This document shows, piece by piece, positions 44,802-52,481 of a DNA stretch of 64,000 bases. The notes beneath the pieces were generated by a model. That model was not told the DNA's origin. It searched no databases and saw nothing but the letters and a program-made list of their open reading frames with translations. Made by a program: the position numbers and the translations under genes. Position 1 is the first letter of the stretch. Every line of letters starts with the position of its first letter. The stretch comes from Candidatus Kaiserbacteria bacterium (lineage in GTDB: Bacteria; Patescibacteriota; Minisyncoccia; Phycocordibacterales; Phycocordibacteraceae): the NCBI GenBank assembly GCA_027451665.1, contig DAIDIW010000002.1, positions 48,251 to 112,250 on the forward strand. The letters run 5' to 3'.

Positions 44802-45620
44802 ATGCCAGACATCGCACCCCTCAGTCTTGCCAGCAACGCACTCGACACCTTCGCCAAGTGGGCGCGGGTCATGGAGAGGGCGGGCGTCACGTACGACCAG
44901 CTCGTGCTGCCAATCAACAGCCGGACGGCGCGCCGGAACCTCGCCGAATACCTGAAGGCGGGCTGCCCGAAGCTGGGAAACGCAACCGCAACAGCCGATC
45001 CCGCACCGCTCACCGGCTACGACCTCGCCTCGATCATCCTCGGGAAGGATTTCATTCGTCCCGACGAGGTCGCGGCGAACCGCCCCGGCGTCGTATACAG
45101 CGACGAGCAGTTCGAATCGTTCGAGAACATGCTGCCCGGCCGCGAGGAACTCGAAGAGCTTCGCGACGATGGCTATATGCTCGTCCCTGGTCCCGCGCAA
45201 CCGATGGCGCTCCTCGACATCCGCAGCCTCAAACCCGGCTACTTCTACACGAAAACGGGCGGCTGGTATGCGGAGGAGAAGCAGCGCTTCTCGCGCGAAG
45301 ATCGCGCCCCGACGAAGTGGCTCAAGCTCCGCAAGGGGCCGGTGCCGAACTCGACGGGCAAGAACTGGGACGAACAAAGCCCGCTCCTCTCGGCCGTCGA
45401 GCACGTCCCGAACGACGCCGAAGTCGAATGGGCCGTGACGACGTACAAGGCCGTCCGGGGCATCTACCTGCTCCCGAACGTCTACGTGCGCACGTCCAGT
45501 CGCACCGCTGGCGGCAGTCGCGTCGACGTGGGCCGCTTCGACGCCGAGGGTCTCGACGTCAACGACGTCTGGGGCGACGGCCGCTTCTCTTACTTGGGCC
45601 TGGCGTCTGCTCGGGAGTGA
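44802..45620 (+). CDS. hypothetical protein (start 44802 'MPDIAPL', or the ATG at 44745 inside the hairpin)
   Basis: No motif recognised. Hairpins followed by T-tracts at about 45640-45720 look like terminators. Confidence 0.35.
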   Translation: MPDIAPLSLASNALDTFAKWARVMERAGVTYDQLVLPINSRTARRNLAEYLKAGCPKLGNATATADPAPLTGYDLASIILGKDFIRPDEVAANRPGVVYSDEQFESFENMLPGREELEELRDDGYMLVPGPAQPMALLDIRSLKPGYFYTKTGGWYAEEKQRFSREDRAPTKWLKLRKGPVPNSTGKNWDEQSPLLSAVEHVPNDAEVEWAVTTYKAVRGIYLLPNVYVRTSSRTAGGSRVDVGRFDAEGLDVNDVWGDGRFSYLGLASARE

Positions 45621-45969
45621 ATCTCGAAGCCTTGAGGGCTTGTCCCTCTTGATCTCTTGACTCCTTGAGCCCTCTCGTTTTTTGCGGATACAACTGCAAA
45701 AGCGCGAGGGCTTTTTCTTTGGTCACTTTTTGGGCAACCCGTGGGCAACCGCGGGCATTACCAACCAACGCAACGCGGACAAAAAGTGGCCAGAGAAAAC
45801 GTTACACCCTCCCAACTTGGGAAGGGTGTTTCGCTTTGACTGCTTCAGAGGCAGAACAGTCCGGGAGCCTTTTGAGGACTGCGTAACGTTCACGATGCGC
45901 ACTTGTTCATCACCTCCTGTATGCGATCTGATTGGTGGGAATCCTGACCATTTGGGATATAATCAACAC

Positions 45970-46317
45970 GTGTCCGATATAAAGAAACTAACTAAGGACT
46001 TGGTCAAATTTCGAGATGCGCGGGATTGGAAACAATTCCACAACCCCAAGGACTGCGCCATCTCTCTGTCGCTCGAGGCCGCAGAGGTACTCGAGCATTT
46101 TCAATGGAAGGATACGAAAGAAGTAGAGCAATACCTAAAGACAAACAAGGCTGATATTGGCGAGGAACTCGCAGACGTTTTGTACTGGGTACTGCTCATC
46201 TCTCACGACCTAAAAATTGACCTCGCGCGGGCATTCGAGAAAAAGATGGAAAAGAACAGTGCCAAGTATCCCGTTGCGAAGGCGAAAGGGAAGCATACCA
46301 AATACACTGAACTATGA
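45970..46317 (+). CDS. MazG-like all-alpha nucleotide pyrophosphohydrolase (YpjD-like); GTG start 6 nt after a TATAAT box
   Basis: 'LSLEAAEVLEHFQWK...IGEELADVLYWVLLISH' with the paired EExxE/D metal-binding helices of the MazG family. TATAAT at 45958-63. The stop overlaps the next start (ATGA). Confidence 0.55.
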   Translation: MSDIKKLTKDLVKFRDARDWKQFHNPKDCAISLSLEAAEVLEHFQWKDTKEVEQYLKTNKADIGEELADVLYWVLLISHDLKIDLARAFEKKMEKNSAKYPVAKAKGKHTKYTEL

Positions 46318-47162
46318 GATTGTTCTCGGGCTCGTCAACAGAGTTTATTAGCGACGCGATACATAACCAGATTGCTGACAAACTCAAAAACGCATTCTTC
46401 CAGTACTACCGATACAATCCCTCGCCCGGCGAGATCCGCTCTTGGCAGAACTCCTTACGAGCCCTGTCGCAGGTTTTTACATACTCGAATCTCGACGACA
46501 ACGGGGTGATTCTTGAATACCAGCTCCCGCTAACCTCGAAGCGGCTTGATTGCCTCATTACGGGTCACGACGAGGAGAGATCAAATGCAGTCATAATCGA
46601 ACTCAAACAATGGGAGAAGTGTGAAATGTCCGAAAGCGAAAATGAGGTCCTCACTTGGGTCGGTGGAGCAAAGCGCGAGGTGTTACACCCCTCCGTTCAA
46701 GTCGGTCGCTATCAAATGTACCTAAAGGATACGCATACAGCTTTTAATATCGATAACCCGGTACAGCTCGAAGCGTGCTCTTATCTACACAACTACACTC
46801 CGCACCCCCACGACGAGATATATTCAACGAAATTCCAGAATTTGCTCGAAACCTTCCCGGTCTTTACGGCTGACGACGTAGATCCCTTCCGGGAGTACCT
46901 AACTTCCAAACTCTCTCGAGGCGGCGGGATGGAGATTTTGGATCGTATCGAAAAAAGCGAGTACAAGCCGAGCAAACAACTCATGGATCACGTGAGCAAG
47001 ATTATCCGCGAACGAAGCGAGTACATTCTGCTCGATGAGCAACTCATTGTGTATGACAAGGTACTCTCCATTGTAAAAAAAGGACTGGATAGCCAGAAGA
47101 AGACGGTCGTTATTGTCCGTGGAGGTCCAGGGACAGGGAAATCCGTGATAGCTATAAACTGA
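46314..47162 (+). pseudogene. N-terminal 282 codons of a PD-(D/E)xK-like plus P-loop NTPase (DUF2075/Schlafen-like ATPase architecture), cut off immediately after Walker A by an IS3 insertion
   Basis: Putative nuclease motif 'RLDCLITGHDEE...IIELKQW' and Walker A 'VIVRGGPGTGKSVIA'. The stop TGA at 47160-62 is the first triplet of the IS left inverted repeat. Confidence 0.55.
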
Positions 47163-47227
47163 CCCGTACCCCAAATTTTGCACACCCTCTTGGGAGGATT
47201 AACCTGTGCGCATAACCCTCCCGCCAT

Positions 47228-47482
47228 ATGAAGCAGCGACGCATCGCTCCAGAACTCAAGGAGCAGATACTTGGGCGCATTAAGAACGACGGCGTCTCCG
47301 TCTCGCAGGCGGCCGCCGATCACGGCGTGAACCCCACCACCATATATGAGTGGCTCAAGGCAGGCATCGAAAGCGGTCCCTCATACGCAGAACGCTCCCG
47401 CCTGAAGAGGGAGAACCTCGACTTGAAGCTCCTCGTGGGCGAGATGACGCTCCGCCTCTCCGAGGCCCAAAAAAAGAGGTGA
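47228..47482 (+). CDS. IS3-family transposase OrfA (HTH)
   Basis: 'SVSQAAADHGVNPTTIYEWLK' HTH and a leucine-zipper-like C-terminus. A slippery A AAA AAG heptamer at 47470-47476 is followed by the stop. Confidence 0.8.
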   Translation: MKQRRIAPELKEQILGRIKNDGVSVSQAAADHGVNPTTIYEWLKAGIESGPSYAERSRLKRENLDLKLLVGEMTLRLSEAQKKR

Positions 47483-48294
47483 GGAGCGCATACCGTGCGA
47501 ACACCGCGCTCCTCGCGCGGCAGCTCGGCGTGTCTCGCCGGAGCCTGTACCACCGCCCCCGCATGGAAGCGAAGGATTGGGCGCTCAAGGTGCGGATCGA
47601 AGAAGCGCTCAGAGAATTCCCCGCATACGGGCACCGCCGCTTGGCGCTTCACCTTCGCGCCAACAAGAAGCGGGTGCGCCGCGTGATGAAGAAGTTCGGC
47701 ATCAAGCCGTATCGAAGGAGGGTACGGCACTGGAAGAAACCGAGGAAACTGCTCGGTATCTATCCGAACCTCCTCATGACCATGCGGCCGTCCTTCCCGC
47801 ACCACGCCTGGGCGGCAGACTTCACGCATATCCTCTGGCGGGAACACGACATCCGCATGGCGACCGTGGTGGACATCTTCACGCGCAGGATCGTGGGCCT
47901 CGCGATTGGGACCCGCGGCGGCACCGCCCTCGTGACCGCCGCGCTCTGCAACGCGCTCCTGGCACATCCCCGCCCTGTCCTCTTCCACAGCGACAATGGG
48001 GTTGAGTATGACGCATGTTCCTTCCGGAGACTTCTCGATTCGCTTGACATCCGCATCTCACGGAGCAAGAAGGGCTGTCCCTGGGAGAACGGGTACCAGG
48101 AGAGCTTCTATGACAAGTTCAAGATCGACCTCGGGGATCCGAACCGCTTCGAGACGCTCGGCGAACTCACCGCAGAACTCTATGCGGCCGTGCATGCATA
48201 CAACACCCGCCGCATACATTCCACGCTTCGCATGCCGCCACAAGAATTCGCAGCAAGGCACGCACGTGCTACGCTATTAGCAATCCCAAGTTAG
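47350..48294 (+). CDS. IS3-family transposase OrfB (DDE integrase core), expressed as OrfAB by -1 frameshifting at 47470-47476
   Basis: After the frameshift the reading continues 'KKEVRSAYRANTALLARQ'. DDE motifs 'HSDNGVEY' and 'CPWENGYQES' are present. Confidence 0.8.
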   Translation: MAQGRHRKRSLIRRTLPPEEGEPRLEAPRGRDDAPPLRGPKKEVRSAYRANTALLARQLGVSRRSLYHRPRMEAKDWALKVRIEEALREFPAYGHRRLALHLRANKKRVRRVMKKFGIKPYRRRVRHWKKPRKLLGIYPNLLMTMRPSFPHHAWAADFTHILWREHDIRMATVVDIFTRRIVGLAIGTRGGTALVTAALCNALLAHPRPVLFHSDNGVEYDACSFRRLLDSLDIRISRSKKGCPWENGYQESFYDKFKIDLGDPNRFETLGELTAELYAAVHAYNTRRIHSTLRMPPQEFAARHARATLLAIPS

Positions 48295-48347
48295 TGTGCA
48301 AGAAAAGGGGTGCATTCCAATTACCGCTGGAATGTCCTTTGTTTCCC

Positions 48348-49106
48348 TTACGCATTACTCGCGATAGGACTCGAACCGCGTATATTCTCCAGAAATTGCT
48401 CCCAAGATTCCTGCGAGTTAATGCCAAGGATTTCTTGGTATGCTCGCTCGTTCTCTTGCGGAGTAGATTTTCTTTGAAGAGTTTTATAGAGCAGAAGATA
48501 CTTTTCTTTCCCGAAATTATTGAGGAGGTATTCGGAAAAAAGAGCTGCGAGTGCGTAGTATTGGCGAGCGAGGTCGTCATTGGTTGCAATCCAAGCATCG
48601 TGGCTCGTTAGTAAATCAGGAGAGATGACGAAACGTTCATTTGTGAACGCTTCTTTTACAACATCTGCAAAGTCATTGCCGTACCAGTCGTGTCCGACCA
48701 TACGCTCCGCAAGTCCTTCTTGAAGGAAACCGATTGAAAGGCCAAGGGGAAGCGAGAGAAGGTGGGTATCTTCGTGAGGTCCTATCACTCGGTCTTTTTC
48801 GGTATAGAGCGCATGCACGGCAAAATCATTGTAAATAGATTGAGCGAACCATGGAGTGCCCATTAATTTCTCCTTTGTCTCGGCGTCAGGATAAAGATAG
48901 TAGGAGATTTTCTTATCAACAGATGGAAGTTCAAGAAATGCGACTATCTGCCGGTACGCGCGTTCCTGAACCTCAACGATTTTCTCGATTTCCTTCTCGG
49001 CCAAGGAATTTTTAAAGTAATGAAAGCGATAGTGCGCAGAATCTCGTGCCTCCCACGGGGCATCTTTAAATGCAGTGGTATAGCCGGGTAACTGCTGTTC
49101 GTACAT
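48348..49106 (-). CDS. hypothetical protein with an HExxH motif (possible zincin-like metallopeptidase)
   Basis: 'GPHEDTHLLS' HExxH, AT-rich codon usage. It lies directly downstream of the radical-SAM gene. Confidence 0.35.
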   Translation of the reverse strand: MYEQQLPGYTTAFKDAPWEARDSAHYRFHYFKNSLAEKEIEKIVEVQERAYRQIVAFLELPSVDKKISYYLYPDAETKEKLMGTPWFAQSIYNDFAVHALYTEKDRVIGPHEDTHLLSLPLGLSIGFLQEGLAERMVGHDWYGNDFADVVKEAFTNERFVISPDLLTSHDAWIATNDDLARQYYALAALFSEYLLNNFGKEKYLLLYKTLQRKSTPQENERAYQEILGINSQESWEQFLENIRGSSPIASNA

Positions 49107-49117
49107 GGACCCACTTT

Positions 49118-49160
49118 ACTACAAGAAGAAAACGGCCGCATGTCTGTGACATACGGCCGC
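49118..49160 (-). terminator. rho-independent terminator after the radical-SAM gene
   Basis: Stem CGGCCGCATGTC/GACATACGGCCG with one mismatch, followed on the minus strand by 'uuuucuucuu'. Confidence 0.5.
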
Positions 49161-49175
49161 CAAGTGTGAAAGACC

Positions 49176-50480
49176 TCATGAATGCACGATCCGGAGGAGA
49201 CCCCGATTCATACGGTCAAGAAGCGCTTTTTGACAGAATCGTCGCGCACCGCCTTGCTCGGGTCCGTGTTCGACCATCGCCTCGAACGTGCACCCACCAC
49301 CGCAGACCGGTAGATATGTGCAGCGTTCTTTGATGCAGTCATCGGTTCGTTTCCACTGTTCAAACCGCGGATCCTTCGTATACGTCGTCGGTTTTGCGGC
49401 GACGTTCGCGAAGTTGAACTCAGGTCGACCGCTGGTGCAGAAGCATTTTTGCAGGTTGCCATCCGGCTGTAGAACTGCTGCGTGTTTTGCCACGGCTACA
49501 CAGAGCGGACCGGCGATGAACTCATCCGGAACTTCGAACCCCTTAGCTTTCGCATACTCCCACGTGGAGAGCGCTGCGTCTGCCAGTTGTTCTTGCGTCA
49601 TGCGACCGGGCGTTACCGAAAGCGATGGCGTGGTGAGTCCGAGCGAAAGGCGTATGCGAGAATGCCTCCCGAGCGCATCAAGCTCGTCGATGAGACGGGC
49701 CAAGTGGTTCTTAGTTCCGGTGTCGAGTGTCAGCCGGATGTCGACGGCCGGAATGTAGTCAGTCGACAGCAGCATCCGAACGTTCTTCATGATGTTTGCG
49801 AATGTCGGACGGTTCTTCCGCCCGAAACGCCGCGTGTCATGAATCTCCGCCGGTCCATCCAGCGTAATCTGTACTCGTCGCCAGTTATAGCGGGAGAACA
49901 TCTCGGCTGTTTTTTCGTCGAGTAGTTCACCGTTCGTCGTAATTTCGACCCAGAAGTCGAGACCAAGTTCTCGACAGAGCGATTGGTAGGCTTCAAGAGC
50001 TTGGGCGATAACCCCCTTGCAGAGAAGCGGTTCGCCACCGAAGAACTTGAGACGCAGCGAATCGACCTCTGGATGGAGCCGAACGTATTCTCGGAACCAC
50101 GTGAGCGAGTGTTCCAGGATTTCCGGCCTCATTGGACGGCCCCTGTCAGCGCCATTCTCGAAGCAATACGGACACTCGAACTGGCACTGAATGGTTGGTT
50201 CGAAATGAAGCGTAAACACATGCGCTTCATCGTTCCGGGTCGTGAGCATGAGTTTGTGCCACTCGGCGATTTCGTCGATATCGCCTTCGACGAGGAAGCC
50301 GTTCTCGATGAGGTCGTCAAGACCTTTCGGGACCGGATTCTCGTCTTGTCGGGCGAGCCATTGGTCGAGTTCAAGCTTGGCCTCGTGACTCATCAAGATG
50401 GCCGCTTCGGTGAAGGTGTTCTTGGCGAGCACTCCTCGAGGTAGATTTTCAAAGATCGTGAACGCACTGAGTAACCACAT
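49176..50480 (-). CDS. radical SAM/SPASM-domain peptide-modifying enzyme with a ~95-aa N-terminal RRE-like extension
   Basis: 'CQFECPYC' CxxxCxxC, 'FFGGEPLL', and a C-terminal SPASM cysteine array 'C...CFC...CIKERCTYLPVCGGGC'. AGGAGA Shine-Dalgarno 7 nt upstream. Confidence 0.8.
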   Translation of the reverse strand: MWLLSAFTIFENLPRGVLAKNTFTEAAILMSHEAKLELDQWLARQDENPVPKGLDDLIENGFLVEGDIDEIAEWHKLMLTTRNDEAHVFTLHFEPTIQCQFECPYCFENGADRGRPMRPEILEHSLTWFREYVRLHPEVDSLRLKFFGGEPLLCKGVIAQALEAYQSLCRELGLDFWVEITTNGELLDEKTAEMFSRYNWRRVQITLDGPAEIHDTRRFGRKNRPTFANIMKNVRMLLSTDYIPAVDIRLTLDTGTKNHLARLIDELDALGRHSRIRLSLGLTTPSLSVTPGRMTQEQLADAALSTWEYAKAKGFEVPDEFIAGPLCVAVAKHAAVLQPDGNLQKCFCTSGRPEFNFANVAAKPTTYTKDPRFEQWKRTDDCIKERCTYLPVCGGGCTFEAMVEHGPEQGGARRFCQKALLDRMNRGLLRIVHS

Positions 50481-50564
50481 GGAACATTCTCCTTTTCGGT
50501 TTGCATGAATAGTGCCCGGAGCTAAAAAGCCCCGGGCACTAAGGTGAAGGAGGTAGGCCTGGCT

Positions 50565-50705
50565 TCAGTAGCCGCAGCCGTCCTTGCCGAACTTGGTGGC
50601 GCCGACGATGCGACGCTTCCCGGGTTTCAGCACCTGCACCGCAGGCTTGGCTTCCGGCTCGATCGCCTTCGTGGCAGTCGAAACGGAGGAGGGGATTGCA
50701 TTCAT
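50565..50705 (-). CDS. 46-aa candidate RiPP precursor peptide (not in the ORF track)
   Basis: Own translation: MNAIPSSVSTATKAIEPEAKPAVQVLKPGKRRIVGATKFGKDGCGY. GAGAGG Shine-Dalgarno 7 nt upstream. It is on the same strand as, and 84 nt upstream of, the radical-SAM gene, with a GC hairpin between them. Confidence 0.4.
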   Translation of the reverse strand: MNAIPSSVSTATKAIEPEAKPAVQVLKPGKRRIVGATKFGKDGCGY

Positions 50706-50779
50706 GGCAAAACCTCTCTATTGAGGAGGACCATTCCTCCACGATACAGAGTGCCACAAAAACGTATGCTTTTCAATAG

Positions 50780-50909
50780 AAAAAGTTCGAGTCCTATCCG
50801 CGAGCGGATGGGACTCGAATTTTTTGACTCATTTCTAAGTCACGATATGTTGCATTTCCTCACTATTTTCTGGACGGGAATGGGTCGGATGCACAGGAAT
50901 CATCTGCTC
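50780..50909. repeat. copy A of a ~130-bp imperfect direct repeat; contains a bidirectional terminator-like hairpin (50780-50826)
   Basis: About 80% identical to 52282-52412. Hairpin GTTCGAGTCCTATCCGC/GCGGATGGGACTCGAA flanked by AAAAA and TTTTTT. Confidence 0.6.
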
Positions 50910-50985
50910 TGGGGATGCGATCCTAACTCTCAAAATATCCTTGCTTTATCTCGCACTCGATGGCGATGGGATTCGAACCTGGATC

Positions 50986-51017
50986 ATAAAAAAGAGCCAC
51001 TGGATTCCCAGCGGCTC
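50986..51017 (-). terminator. rho-independent terminator of purM
   Basis: 10-bp stem GAGCCGCUGG/CCAGUGGCUC (one G-U), loop gaau, then UUUUUU on the minus strand. Confidence 0.6.
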
Positions 51018-51035
51018 TCAAGTCTGTCGACGGTG

Positions 51036-52151
51036 CTATTCGCCCGGAGGCTCGAGCACCATGTCGTTTATCGGTCCAAAGACAGTTTTGCGTTCGCCAT
51101 CTTCGACGCAGCCGACTTCAAGCGCTTCGTAGCCGGCCGTTTTCGCGATGGCCAGAACCCGATCGGCTTCGTTCACTGGAACGAAGACGTAGTAGCCAAC
51201 GCCCCAGTTGAAGGTGGTAATGCAATCCTTGTCCGAGACCCCGAGCTCCCACATGAAGCGGAAGAGCGGCGGCACCTCCGGCCAGGAGTGGATGCGGTAG
51301 GTGTGCGGGCGATGGTCGAAGGCGACCTTCGCGACGCCGCTCCCCGTTCCTGGCAGGAGCGCGTGGATGTCCACCCCGTGATTGAGGAGCGTCTCAACGA
51401 GTCCGACATAACACCGCGTCGGAATAAGCGCCTCATCGCCGAGCGTATTGCCACCCGGCAGTTTAGCGAGGAACTTATCCGGAAGATCCATCGCCCGCTT
51501 GATAACGAGCGATACACCATTGGCGTGCAAGCCGGAGCTCGTAATGCCGATGATGCGATCGCCGGTCGCGAGCTTGCTGCCGTCAATCAGGTTGCTAAGC
51601 GGCGCGATGATGCCTGTGACGCAGCCGCTCAACGATGGCGCACTCTTGACCGGTTCCTGCGCACGAACCAGATATTTGAGCGCAGGAGATTCGCCGGCGA
51701 CGAGTGCCATGCCAGACATCTTGCAGGCCTCGTAAAAGCCCTGCGCGAGGTCTTGAGCACGCTTCACATCTTGGAACCATTCACTGTCTCCGGCGGCGAC
51801 CTCGTCCACATACGCCACGGGCATTGCGCCCTGGGCGATGCAATCGTTCACCGCCATCATTGCGTTGTCGATGCCGATGCCGCGATAGTGCGGGTCGCCG
51901 GTACCGTCGTTCTGCTACATCCACTCGGCGATCCAATTCTTGTTCCCGAGGCCTTCCATGGTATTGCACCAGGCGTGTTTGTAGTTGCCCTCGTAGCGGA
52001 AGATGCCGCCGTGTGAGTGCAGCACGCTGGTGTTGATGAATACCTGTCGTGCTTCGGGGAAGCCGACAGTACGTTTGGCGGTCGCAATCATTGCGTCCTT
52101 GAAGGGCTCGATCTTGGTGTAATCGACTCCAGCCTTCGCATATTCGCTCAT
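51036..52151 (-). pseudogene. purM: phosphoribosylformylglycinamidine cyclo-ligase (AIR synthase) interrupted by an in-frame TAG at 51915-51917
   Basis: The N-terminal ORF 'MSEYAKAGVDYTKI...' and the C-terminal ORF '...GITSSGLHANGVSLV...' are in the same frame, and the 18 codons between them also align to PurM. A single amber codon separates them. Confidence 0.65.
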
Positions 52152-52281: not shown

Positions 52282-52412
52282 AAAAAGTTCGAGTCCCATC
52301 CAAGGGCGGATAGGACTCGAACTTTCTTGACTCTTCACGAATCTAGAATGTGTTGCGATTGCTCGCTTTTTTCCGGACGGGAATGGGTCGGTTGCACAGA
52401 AATCATCTGCTC
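52282..52412. repeat. copy B of the ~130-bp direct repeat; this copy is the 3' trailer of tRNA-Asn and carries a minus-strand terminator hairpin (52284-52329)
   Basis: Alignment with 50780-50909; the hairpin position has compensatory differences. Confidence 0.6.
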
Positions 52413-52481
52413 CGCGGGTAGGATTCGAACCTACGACCAATCGGTTAACAGCCGACCGCTCTACCACTGAGCTACCGCGGA
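52410..52481 (-). tRNA. tRNA-Asn (anticodon GTT)
   Basis: Folded by hand: acceptor TCCGCGG/CCGCGGA, D-arm GCTC-AGTGGTA-GAGC, anticodon loop CTGTTAA, T-arm GTAGG-TTCGAAT-CCTAC, discriminator G. No encoded CCA. Confidence 0.85.

What the first reader, a model, noticed from the sequence alone, without database searches (positions are those of the whole stretch)
49118..50760. Candidate RiPP module: unannotated 46-aa peptide ending -KDGCGY upstream of a radical-SAM/SPASM enzyme with a fused RRE-like N-terminus
The peptide ORF at 50565..50705 (minus strand) has a good Shine-Dalgarno (GAGAGG, 7 nt upstream) and its own upstream hairpin GGAGGA/TCCTCC. It is followed after a GC-rich hairpin (GTGCCCGG/CCGGGCAC, no U-tract, attenuator-like) by a radical-SAM gene with CxxxCxxC, GGEPLL and a complete SPASM cysteine array. 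That gene's ~95 residues before the radical-SAM core are not part of the core fold and resemble RiPP recognition elements. The peptide C-terminus D-G-C-G-Y resembles the mycofactocin precursor MftA C-terminus (…DGMCGVY), where the radical-SAM enzyme MftC decarboxylates and crosslinks the terminal Tyr. No mftB/D/E/F homologues are nearby, so this is not canonical mycofactocin. It may be a different, possibly undescribed C-terminal Tyr/Cys modification system. The unit lies in a compositionally atypical island and ends at a terminator, with an HExxH protein immediately downstream.
Basis: partly seen in the sequence, partly recalled or inferred. Interest (0 to 1): 0.8.

Follow-up and report, generated by a model that had tools for sequence, protein, structure and literature searches.

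The report
Three-gene modified-peptide cassette in Patescibacteria
A tiny gene for a peptide ending in KDGCGY, a radical-SAM enzyme and a zinc protease form a conserved cassette in ultra-small Patescibacteria (CPR) bacteria; it very probably makes a short chemically cross-linked peptide of a family I found no description of.

Summary
The 46-aa ORF (50565..50705, minus) sits upstream of a 434-aa radical-SAM/SPASM gene (49176..50480). A homologous short ORF lies in the same place in 46 of 47 related loci that have at least 200 nt upstream. These loci span rSAM identity from 80% down to 30%, and nearly all are Patescibacteria/Parcubacteria. Of 141 distinct peptides, 134 end exactly in D-x-C-G-Y-stop, with D, C, G and Y invariant. 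Six carry a K-D-x-C-C variant. The leaders vary apart from a hh[LV]K-x-G…RF motif. The enzyme has a fused RRE-like N-terminal domain, and its closest solved structure is the thioether synthase CteB. It falls far below the cut-off of every NCBIfam maturase family. No MftC match appears among the listed hits, and it is not anSME. The HExxH gene downstream (48348..49106) belongs to the cassette: it is syntenic in every locus that extends far enough and folds as a gluzincin metalloprotease. Nothing else is conserved nearby. Structured hairpins follow both the peptide gene and the rSAM gene across loci. The chemistry is inferred: most likely a Cys thioether to a carbon next to a carboxylate (Asp at Cys−2, or the C-terminal Tyr). 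The mycofactocin analogy is not supported. I rate it a new family of a known kind.

The parts
50565..50705 (-). Precursor peptide gene, 46 aa. The N-terminus is variable. The leader motif is VQVLKPGKRRIVG. The core is F-G-K-D-G-C-G-Y followed by stop.
   Evidence: ORF. Homologous ORFs lie upstream of the rSAM gene in 46 loci. The collection holds 126 peptide clusters, all named hypothetical protein. Of 141 distinct peptides, 134 end in D-x-C-G-Y.
50713..50718 (-). Shine-Dalgarno-like GAGAGG, 7 nt before the peptide ATG
   Evidence: Read directly from the sequence.
50725..50740 (-). Small hairpin GGAGGA-ATGG-TCCTCC just upstream of the SD. Its significance was not tested.
   Evidence: Read directly from the sequence. 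Its conservation was not examined.
50510..50541 (-). 14-bp stem-loop between the peptide stop and the rSAM start. It is probably a partial terminator or mRNA-stabilising element that sets the precursor:enzyme transcript ratio.
   Evidence: RNAfold gives the 84-nt spacer -33.4 kcal/mol, z = -4.4. An equivalent hairpin of unrelated sequence occurs in 33 of 43 loci at z < -2, mean z -3.4.
49176..50480 (-). Radical-SAM/SPASM peptide maturase, 434 aa
   Evidence: PF04055 scores 54.8 bits (cut-off 29.5). The best NCBIfam hit is TIGR04463 at 174 bits against a cut-off of 525. The AF2 model has pLDDT 92.5. The top Foldseek hit is CteB 5why/5wgg, TM 0.70-0.72.
50217..50480 (-). N-terminal RRE-like domain (residues about 1-88): three beta-strands followed by three helices
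   Evidence: DSSP of the AF2 model gives E8-12, E17-21, E27-30, H32-43, H54-59, H70-83. The segment matches only the N-terminal domains of the TIGR04463 and FlmE/OhkG maturases. The CteB structural alignment spans the full length. No Pfam hit of any kind, PqqD included, was found even at E <= 10.
50163..50186 (-). C99-x3-C103-x2-C106 radical-SAM cluster motif
   Evidence: These columns are invariant in a 31-sequence alignment.
49233..49502 (-). SPASM region with C327, C346, C348, C382, C387, C393, C397 and C416
   Evidence: TIGR04085 SPASM domain scores 44.5 bits (cut-off 27). The Cys columns are invariant or nearly invariant.
49121..49161 (-). Intrinsic-terminator-like hairpin plus T-run between the rSAM gene and the peptidase gene
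   Evidence: Found by the terminator scan. An equivalent hairpin occurs in 29 of 33 loci at z < -2, mean z -3.8.
48348..49106 (-). Gluzincin-type zinc metallopeptidase, 252 aa, no signal peptide. It is the probable leader peptidase.
   Evidence: A homologue lies directly downstream of the rSAM gene in 32 genome loci and 10 metagenome loci. H111, E112, H115 and E130 are invariant. The AF2 model has pLDDT 94.8. The top Foldseek hits are M9 collagenase peptidase domains, M30 lugdulysin and M1 aminopeptidases.
48717..48776 (-). H111-E-D-T-H115 … E130 zinc-binding and catalytic motif of the peptidase
   Evidence: These columns are invariant in a 32-sequence alignment.
50992..51019 (-). Terminator-like hairpin ending the upstream purM-like gene. 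It marks the upstream boundary of the cassette.
   Evidence: Found by the terminator scan.

Best explanation
This is a compact three-gene RiPP cassette found almost only in Patescibacteria (Parcubacteria/Paceibacteria).

Proposed steps:
1. The ribosome makes a 30-60-aa precursor.
2. The conserved leader motif (two hydrophobic residues, L/V, K, x, G, then about 4 residues and RF) docks as a beta-strand on the RRE-like N-terminal domain of the radical-SAM/SPASM enzyme. This step is inferred.
3. The enzyme modifies the invariant C-terminal core (hydrophobic)-G-K-D-x-C-G-Y. The most likely reaction uses the 5'-deoxyadenosyl radical to abstract a hydrogen from a carbon next to a carboxylate and joins that carbon to the Cys sulfur held on an auxiliary Fe-S cluster, giving a small thioether ring. 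The favoured acceptor is C-beta of the invariant Asp two residues before the Cys. The alternative is C-alpha of the C-terminal Tyr two residues after it. This step is inferred.
4. The adjacent cytoplasmic gluzincin metalloprotease removes the leader. This would release a modified peptide of about 7-8 residues. This step is inferred.

Transcription appears to be in two units. The first is peptide, stem-loop, rSAM, terminator. The second is the peptidase gene, probably from its own promoter.

Shown here: the co-conservation and order of the three genes, the leader/core architecture, the domain composition and folds, and the conserved RNA hairpins.

Not shown: the chemistry, the cleavage site and the biological role.
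For: - Synteny: the peptide is present in 33 of 33 genome loci and 13 of the 14 metagenome loci that have at least 200 nt upstream, down to 30% rSAM identity.
- The peptidase lies directly downstream in every locus that extends far enough.
- No other gene is shared among the loci.
- Core conservation: D, C, G and Y are invariant in 134 of 134 type-A peptides. D-x-C is the only element shared with the six type-B cores.
- Core type tracks the enzyme tree.
- Enzyme: it has radical-SAM and SPASM domains. All the best family matches are RiPP maturases, many of them for Cys-rich peptides (rSAM_vs_C_rich, CefB, CcpM, SCIFF, PapB, QhpD).
- The closest solved structure by sequence and by fold is the thioether-forming CteB, which also has an N-terminal RRE (PMC8172795).
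- Distant outgroup enzymes sit next to other Cys-rich peptides.
- Chemical precedents: PapB links Cys to the carbon alpha to an Asp/Glu side-chain carboxylate, and can also link Cys to C-terminal residues (PMC12373016). NxxcB makes a beta-thioether to an acceptor upstream of the Cys and tolerates Asp there (PMC9389541).
- Peptidase: it has the HExxH…E motif, a high-confidence gluzincin fold and no signal peptide.
- Hairpins: they are conserved in structure but not in sequence.
Against: - Chemistry cannot be read from RS-SPASM homology. TigE (cyclopropyl synthase), ChlB (cyclophane) and anSME are structural neighbours only slightly behind CteB (PMC10878394).
- A D-x-C thioether alone does not explain why G and the C-terminal Y are invariant in type A.
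- No exporter, immunity gene or receptor is conserved nearby, so the role is open.
- The window's own peptidase misses the Pfam Peptidase_MA_2 threshold (14.5 bits against 32.4).
- No expression or product data exist.
- One related locus (L057) lacks the peptide gene and has an IS3 transposase upstream instead.
Confidence: 0.75

Rival explanations
1. Mycofactocin-like chemistry. The enzyme would oxidatively decarboxylate the C-terminal Tyr, as MftC does, possibly followed by a cross-link. The product would be a redox-cofactor-like molecule.
For: - Tyr is the C-terminal residue in 134 of 134 type-A peptides.
- The core D-G-C-G-Y resembles the MftA C-terminus …DGMCGVY. This sequence is from my own knowledge and was not tested here.
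- An invariant core with a variable leader is the pattern of cofactor precursors such as PqqA and MftA, not of antimicrobial RiPPs.
Against: - No MftC model appears among the 25 best full-length NCBIfam hits or among the hits to the SPASM segment at E <= 1.
- The penultimate residue is an invariant Gly. It lacks the C-beta that MftC cross-links in Val-Tyr (own knowledge of MftC).
- None of the type-B cores (HKDSCCGRRT, HKDACCGGR, GKDGCCVYNR, …CCGSRY) keeps the C-G-Y ending, two have no Tyr at all, and one does not end in Tyr.
- No gene besides the three is conserved, so there are no mftB/D/E/F-like partners.
- The distribution is patchy and island-like, which is unlike a core cofactor.
Confidence: 0.1
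2. Carbon-carbon or ether cross-link to the Tyr ring (streptide-, cyclophane- or darobactin-like). The enzyme would abstract a hydrogen from Asp, Lys or Cys C-beta, and the resulting radical would attack the aromatic ring of the C-terminal Tyr, for example D(i) to Y(i+4).
For: - Tyr and Asp are invariant at fixed spacing in type A.
- Cyclophane and ether-forming maturases (DynA, YhhB, AmcB, GrrM/OscB, XyeB, DarW) are among the family hits, and ChlB is among the structural neighbours.
- Streptide enzymes make Lys-Trp links (PMC9389541).
Against: - These families score lower than the Cys-peptide maturases.
- The hypothesis leaves the invariant Cys unexplained.
- Lys(-6) is replaced by Q, L or P in 12 of 134 peptides.
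- Type-B cores change or lose the Asp-Tyr spacing.
Confidence: 0.12
3. Non-cross-linking oxidation of the Cys, such as anSME-like conversion to formylglycine, or another single-residue modification such as epimerisation.
For: anSME is a structural neighbour (Foldseek E about 1e-14) and gives a weak family hit.
Against: - TIGR03942 scores 74 bits against a cut-off of 349.
- The peptide lacks the C/S-x-P/A-x-R sulfatase motif (sequence).
- anSME has no RRE, whereas this enzyme has one.
- A dedicated leader peptidase fits a released RiPP product.
Confidence: 0.04
4. The small ORF is a chance ORF, and the rSAM enzyme acts on something else.
For: None beyond its small size. Pfam and NCBIfam give no hit for the peptide.
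Against: The motif, the stop-codon position and the gene order are conserved in 46 loci while the surrounding DNA and the leader sequences diverge.
Confidence: 0.01

Closest known systems
CteB / thermocellin and other SCIFF-type ranthipeptide maturases
   Same: Both have the architecture RRE, then radical-SAM barrel, then SPASM with two auxiliary clusters. CteB is the best PDB match by sequence (2.5e-23) and by fold (TM 0.70-0.72, full length). Both substrates carry Cys in the core.
   Different: Identity is about 15%, and the SCIFF maturase model TIGR03974 scores 67.6 bits against a cut-off of 425. SCIFF precursors have six Cys, whereas this core has one (type A) or two (type B). The dedicated gluzincin peptidase is a conserved partner here.
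PapB / freyrasin (Cys-Asp beta-thioether ranthipeptide) and QhpD
   Same: These are radical-SAM/SPASM enzymes that join Cys sulfur to the carbon next to an Asp/Glu carboxylate. PapB can also use a C-terminal carboxylate (PMC12373016). Asp and Cys are the only residues invariant across both core types here.
   Different: In PapA the Cys precedes the Asp (C-x3-D, repeated six times). Here the Asp precedes the Cys (D-x-C) and occurs once. PapB scores 94.7 bits against a cut-off of 340, and QhpD 79.6 against 453. PapB's match covers only the core domain.
NxxcB / NxxC streptococcal RaS-RiPP
   Same: A single beta-thioether forms between a Cys and an acceptor residue a few positions upstream. The enzyme tolerates Asp as the acceptor (PMC9389541).
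   Different: The spacing differs (N-x-x-C against D-x-C), as do the taxon and the operon. No NxxcB-specific model was tested here.
TIGR04463 (rSAM_vs_C_rich) RiPP maturase family
   Same: It is the best HMM match over nearly the full length, including the N-terminal domain (174 bits overall; N-terminal segment E = 3.2e-5).
   Different: The score is one third of the 525-bit cut-off. Distant rSAM relatives in the Bacteroidales and gut-metagenome outgroup loci (not themselves tested against TIGR04463) sit next to other Cys-rich peptides or none, have no KDxCGY peptide, and the genome-derived ones checked have no peptidase homologue.
Mycofactocin (MftA/MftB/MftC) and PQQ (PqqA/D/E) cofactor pathways
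   Same: Each pathway combines a short precursor with a near-invariant C-terminal core, a radical-SAM/SPASM enzyme, an RRE and a metallopeptidase. The C-terminal Tyr and the D-G…C-G…Y resemblance to MftA come from my own knowledge.
   Different: No MftC or PqqE match appears among the hits listed. The RRE is fused, not a separate MftB/PqqD. There is no Val-Tyr. No further pathway genes are present. The distribution is patchy and accessory.

Membership tests
Radical SAM superfamily | CxxxCxxC cluster motif and the radical-SAM core domain | tested here: met
   C99-x3-C103-x2-C106 is invariant. PF04055 scores 54.8 bits against a cut-off of 29.5.
SPASM subfamily | C-terminal SPASM domain with the Cys array for two auxiliary 4Fe-4S clusters | tested here: met
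   TIGR04085 scores 44.5 bits against a cut-off of 27. The array is C327-x13-G-x4-C346, C382-x4-C387-x5-C393-x3-C397 and C416, all invariant, plus C348 in at least 90% of sequences.
RiPP system (general) | A short precursor gene adjacent to the modifying enzyme, conserved across homologues, with leader/core organisation | tested here: met
   46 loci carry the peptide immediately upstream. The leader motif and an invariant core are present.
RiPP system (general) | RiPP recognition element (PqqD-like winged helix) in or next to the enzyme | tested here: inconclusive
   The fold topology (three strands then three helices) and the full-length structural match to RRE-containing CteB support it. No PqqD/RRE sequence model hit was found. 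Peptide binding was not tested.
RiPP system (general) | A post-translationally modified, leader-cleaved product exists | not testable with these tools
   This needs expression and mass spectrometry.
Sactipeptide / ranthipeptide | Cys sulfur-to-carbon thioether installed by the rSAM enzyme | not testable with these tools
   Only indirect evidence exists: the invariant Cys and the closest relatives being thioether synthases.
TIGR04463 / CefB / geopeptide / Clo7bot / FlmE-OhkG maturase families | Score at or above the curated NCBIfam cut-off | tested here: not met
   Scores against cut-offs are 174/525, 143/600, 135/400, 132/600 and 128/500 bits.
Mycofactocin system | MftC-type enzyme | tested here: not met
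   No MftC model appears among the 25 best full-length hits (the weakest of those has E = 2.8e-11) or among the SPASM-segment hits at E <= 1.
Mycofactocin system | MftA precursor ending in Val-Tyr, with mftB/D/E/F neighbours | tested here: not met
   The core ends in Gly-Tyr. No NCBIfam peptide model hits even at E <= 10. Only the three genes are conserved.
Anaerobic sulfatase-maturating enzymes | TIGR03942 cut-off reached, and a C/S-x-P/A-x-R substrate motif | tested here: not met
   The score is 74.4 bits against a cut-off of 349. The motif is absent from the peptides.
Gluzincin (clan MA) metallopeptidases, for the 252-aa protein | HExxH plus a downstream Glu as the third zinc ligand, and the thermolysin-like fold | tested here: met
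   H111, E112, H115 and E130 are invariant. Foldseek gives probability 1.00 to M9, M30 and M1 peptidase domains.
Pfam Peptidase_MA_2 (PF13485) | Gathering score of 32.4 bits | tested here: not met
   The window protein scores 14.5 bits, E = 0.032. A few homologues carry a precomputed PF13485 hit.

The most novel reading that the evidence does not exclude
The cassette would define a new RiPP class specific to Patescibacteria. Its product would be a peptide of about 7 residues with a cross-link topology not yet described: a Cys thioether to an Asp two residues upstream, or to the C-terminal Tyr alpha-carbon. The core is essentially invariant across enzymes only 30% identical, while the leader drifts. 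That is the reverse of antimicrobial RiPPs. On this reading the product would act on a conserved target, for example as a signal, a metal-binding compound or a cofactor-like small molecule used in the episymbiotic lifestyle of these ultra-small bacteria.
Probability: 0.3. Interest if true: 0.8.

Novelty: new variant of a known kind. Interest (0 to 1): 0.64.

Why it matters
Patescibacteria (CPR) have tiny genomes, and few natural products from them have been characterised (my own knowledge, not tested here). A recurrent, self-contained three-gene cassette with an invariant core is therefore a tractable entry point. The three genes are about 2.4 kb in total and can be synthesised and co-expressed. 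The expected read-out is a single mass shift on an 8-residue core.

The work could reveal a new radical-SAM cross-link topology. It could also supply a minimal thioether-macrocyclisation catalyst and its matching leader peptidase.

The reversed conservation pattern (invariant core, variable leader) suggests a product with a conserved target. If so, it would bear on how these episymbionts interact with hosts or neighbours.

For annotation, neither the peptide family nor this enzyme and peptidase subfamily has a curated model. All members are currently named 'hypothetical protein' or 'radical SAM protein'.

Tried and rejected
- Pfam and NCBIfam scans of the peptide, even at E <= 10, gave nothing.
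- Pfam on residues 1-95 of the enzyme gave no hit of any kind, PqqD included.
- A profile search of PDB sequences with the peptidase alignment gave nothing. Only the fold search worked.
- Exact look-up of the window's rSAM protein to identify the source contig found nothing on record.
- Literature searches found nothing on this system. The terms were Patescibacteria, Parcubacteria or candidate phyla radiation combined with radical SAM, RiPP, SPASM or thioether, and the string DGCGY. The one CPR RiPP paper found concerns ATP-grasp graspetides.
- Hudson 2019 and Grove 2017 are not held in the library.
- I tried to infer an open coordination site on auxiliary cluster I by aligning the conserved Cys residues to CteB and anSME. 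Without the ligand assignments from the CteB paper the mapping was not decisive, so I dropped it.
- I considered and rejected three readings: anSME, canonical mycofactocin, and a chance ORF (see the rival explanations).
- I considered Lys(-6) as a cross-link partner and rejected it, because it is Q, L or P in 12 of 134 peptides.
- The sigma-70 promoter scan of the window found nothing useful for the cassette.
Full report
**What is in the window**

On the minus strand, 50565..50705 encodes MNAIPSSVSTATKAIEPEAKPAVQVLKPGKRRIVGATKFGKDGCGY. A GAGAGG lies 7 nt before the ATG, and a small GGAGGA/TCCTCC hairpin lies just upstream. The 84-nt spacer that follows contains a 14-bp stem-loop at 50510..50541. 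The spacer folds at -33.4 kcal/mol, z = -4.4 against shuffles.

A 434-aa gene follows at 49176..50480. It carries C99-x3-C103-x2-C106 and FGGEPLL. Its cysteine array is C327-x13-G-x4-C346(-x-C348) … C382-x4-C387-x5-C393-x3-C397 … C416. Pfam Radical_SAM passes its threshold (54.8 bits against 29.5). The NCBIfam SPASM domain also passes (44.5 against 27).

After a terminator-like hairpin and T-run at 49161..49131 comes a 252-aa HExxH gene at 48348..49106.

**Is the small ORF real?**

The enzyme has about 290 relatives in the protein collection. Nearly all come from Kaiserbacteria, Minisyncoccota, Paceibacterota and other Patescibacteria.

I fetched 50 loci from species-representative genomes and 80 from metagenomes. 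All 33 genome loci whose enzyme is 32-73% identical to the window's have a short ORF ending 50-150 nt upstream of the enzyme gene. The same holds for 13 of the 14 metagenome family loci that have at least 200 nt upstream. Two further loci have too little upstream sequence to judge, and L060 has only 161 nt.

A profile of these peptides finds 126 clusters in the collection. All are named 'hypothetical protein', and one is an identical copy of the window's peptide from an NCBI record.

Pooling gives 141 distinct peptides. Of these, 134 end exactly in D-x-C-G-Y followed by stop:
- D, C, G and Y are present in 134 of 134.
- Position -7 is G in 127.
- Position -6 is K in 122, otherwise Q, L or P.
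- Position -4 is G in 119.
- Position -8 is hydrophobic in 133.

Six peptides have a second core type, K-D-x-C-C-(G/V)…, for example GKDSCCGSRY, HKDSCCGRRT and GKDGCCVYNR. One further sequence reads through the stop. Only D-x-C is shared by both types.

The leaders vary in length and sequence. The exception is a motif (two hydrophobic residues, L/V, K, x, G, about 4 residues, RF) that lies 16-23 residues before the Asp. On a rough NJ tree the type-B enzymes cluster together, and type A lies on both sides of them. This is not a chance ORF.

**The enzyme**

Its best family matches are all RiPP maturases, and all fall far below their curated cut-offs:
- TIGR04463 rSAM_vs_C_rich: 174 bits against 525
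- CefB: 143 against 600
- geopeptide maturase: 135 against 400
- Clo7bot: 132 against 600
- FlmE/OhkG: 128 against 500
- PapB, DynA, nif11, QhpD, CcpM and SCIFF maturases: lower still

anSME scores 74 bits against 349. No MftC model is among the 25 best hits, or among the hits to the SPASM segment at E <= 1.

The N-terminal 95 residues hit no Pfam model at all. They do match the N-terminal domains of TIGR04463 (E = 3.2e-5) and FlmE/OhkG.

The AlphaFold model (pLDDT 92.5) shows three strands and then three helices before the barrel. Its best solved neighbour is CteB, with TM 0.70-0.72 over essentially the full length. CteB is also the best hit by sequence profile, at 2.5e-23. CteB is a thioether synthase with an N-terminal RRE. 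One of its auxiliary clusters has an open site that binds the substrate cysteine (PMC8172795).

TigE (a cyclopropyl synthase, PMC10878394), ChlB and anSME follow closely in the ranking. Homology alone therefore does not fix the chemistry.

**The third gene**

A tblastn search with the 252-aa protein finds a homologue starting 50-100 nt after the enzyme's stop. This holds in 32 genome loci and 10 metagenome loci, which is every locus that extends far enough.

All-against-all clustering of ORFs from 36 loci finds no other real shared gene. The remaining recurrent clusters are antisense or overlapping ORFs inside the enzyme and peptidase genes. There is no transporter, no immunity gene and no mft-like gene. 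The flanking genes differ from locus to locus.

The protein has invariant H111-E-x-x-H115 and E130-G-L-A. Its model has pLDDT 94.8. Foldseek matches it to M9 collagenase peptidase domains, M30 lugdulysin and M1 aminopeptidases at probability 1.00. It has no N-terminal hydrophobic segment.

Against 1.84 billion representative proteins, about 25 score above 185 bits. These form the cassette subfamily. A wider domain family of 591 proteins (E <= 1e-10), often within multidomain proteins, lies behind them. This protein is the obvious candidate for leader removal.

**RNA features**

A strong stem-loop between the peptide and enzyme genes is present in 33 of 43 loci at z < -2 (mean -3.4). The sequences are unrelated. 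Some are followed by a U-run and some are not.

A second hairpin with a T-run lies between the enzyme and peptidase genes in 29 of 33 loci (mean z -3.8). In 18 of 30 loci a TATAAT-like hexamer matching at least 5 of 6 positions ends 6-16 nt before the peptidase start. Composition-matched shuffles give 9.3 +/- 2.4, with a maximum of 17 in 500.

My reading, which is an inference, is as follows. The first hairpin sets a high ratio of precursor transcript to enzyme transcript. The second ends that transcription unit. The peptidase is then made from its own, nearly leaderless transcript. In the window itself the -10-like match is weak.

**Genomic setting**

The cassette is the lowest-GC 2.4 kb of the window (0.526 against 0.589 +/- 0.024). 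It lies in a low-GC block between tRNA-Thr and tRNA-Asn. An IS3-family element lies 37 nt away. The different neighbours in every locus add to this picture of an accessory, mobile or frequently rearranged module.

**Mechanism**

The gene content and architecture of a RiPP pathway are shown. The chemistry is inferred.

I favour a thioether from the invariant Cys for three reasons. Cys is the one side chain that none of the 141 peptides lacks. The nearest families and the nearest structure act on Cys peptides. More distant relatives of the enzyme sit next to other Cys-rich peptides.

For the acceptor I favour C-beta of the invariant Asp at Cys-2. Three precedents support this:
- PapB joins Cys to the carbon next to Asp/Glu side-chain carboxylates (PMC12373016).
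- QhpD is reported to do the same (my own knowledge).
- NxxcB links a Cys to an upstream acceptor and tolerates Asp there (PMC9389541).

The free alpha-carboxylate of the Tyr at Cys+2 is an alternative acceptor. PapB can cyclise onto C-terminal residues (PMC12373016), and this would explain why Tyr is always the last residue in type A.

My estimates are about 0.45 that the modification is a Cys thioether and about 0.25-0.3 that Asp is the acceptor. I put the RiPP-cassette model as a whole at about 0.75, and the narrower claim that the peptide is this enzyme's substrate higher still.

**Comparison and novelty**

The system works like an RRE-dependent RS-SPASM RiPP pathway, with CteB, PapB and NxxcB as the nearest analogues. 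It is not a member of any curated maturase family I tested, and its peptide matches no model.

The mycofactocin resemblance is limited to a few letters of the core. The invariant Gly replaces the Val that MftC cross-links, and no MftC match was seen.

I found no description of this system in the searchable literature. That library lacks most subscription journals, so prior description in a large-scale radical-SAM RiPP survey cannot be excluded.

One unusual feature is that the core is invariant while the leader drifts. This is the pattern of cofactor or signal precursors, not of antimicrobial RiPPs.

**Verdict**

I rate it a new variant of a known kind, with interest about 0.64.

Noticed in passing
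window 51036..52151 (-), stop at 51915..51917: The purM-like gene (AIR synthase, TIGR00878 1.2e-41 for the downstream part) is interrupted by an in-frame TAG (…NWIAEWM*QNDGTG…). It could be a pseudogene, a sequencing error or read-through.
   Followed up: partly
window 47168..48311 (+): An IS3-family insertion sequence. It has 28-nt imperfect inverted repeats, orfA at 47228..47482 and an overlapping orfB at 47350..48294 with rve domains. It lies 37 nt from the peptidase stop codon. It abuts a gene (46314..47162) that ends right after a P-loop (GPGTGKS), which suggests IS-mediated truncation.
   Followed up: partly
L057:1255-1986 (-) and L057:2501-3739: This is the one related cassette that lacks a precursor gene. 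It has an IS3 transposase 52% identical to the window's orfB directly upstream of its rSAM gene. The precursor may have been lost to an IS insertion, and related IS elements associate with the cassette in two genomes.
   Followed up: no
window 49107..49175 and the equivalent spacers in L001-L057: A conserved terminator-like hairpin is followed in many loci by a perfect or near-perfect TATAAT that ends 6-12 nt before the peptidase ATG (18 of 30 loci at >=5/6 match; shuffles give 9.3 +/- 2.4). This suggests a separate, nearly leaderless peptidase transcript.
   Followed up: partly
window about 45600..51000, tRNA-Thr 45408..45484 (-), tRNA-Asn 52409..52481 (-): A low-GC block (0.46-0.56 against a window mean of 0.59) holds a MazG-like gene (45682..46317), the truncated P-loop gene, the IS3 element and the cassette. 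tRNA genes lie near both ends, which makes it a possible genomic island.
   Followed up: partly
L025, L026, L027, L061, L062, L063 (upstream of the rSAM match): A second core type occurs with two adjacent cysteines and a short basic tail (KD[SGA]CC[GV]…, for example GKDSCCGSRY, HKDSCCGRRT). Its enzymes cluster together on the tree, so the product may differ.
   Followed up: partly
L029-L033 (upstream of the rSAM match): A deep clade (enzyme about 32% identical) has very short, acidic precursors of 29-41 aa, such as MTEYSIPNDDLQILDEGTDCGTRTGNVGKDGCGY. The leader motif is L-x-EGTD…TRTGN. One of these peptides (P0309) is seen on 226 contigs.
   Followed up: no
L093:384-554 and L067:1018-1308: Distant outgroup rSAM/SPASM genes (22-27% identical) sit next to other Cys-rich precursors: …NNPQCNNCQCNNCGC in a gut-metagenome contig (L093), and a long-leader peptide ending …RYGCGLECNMCSTLCTPYG.
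   Followed up: no
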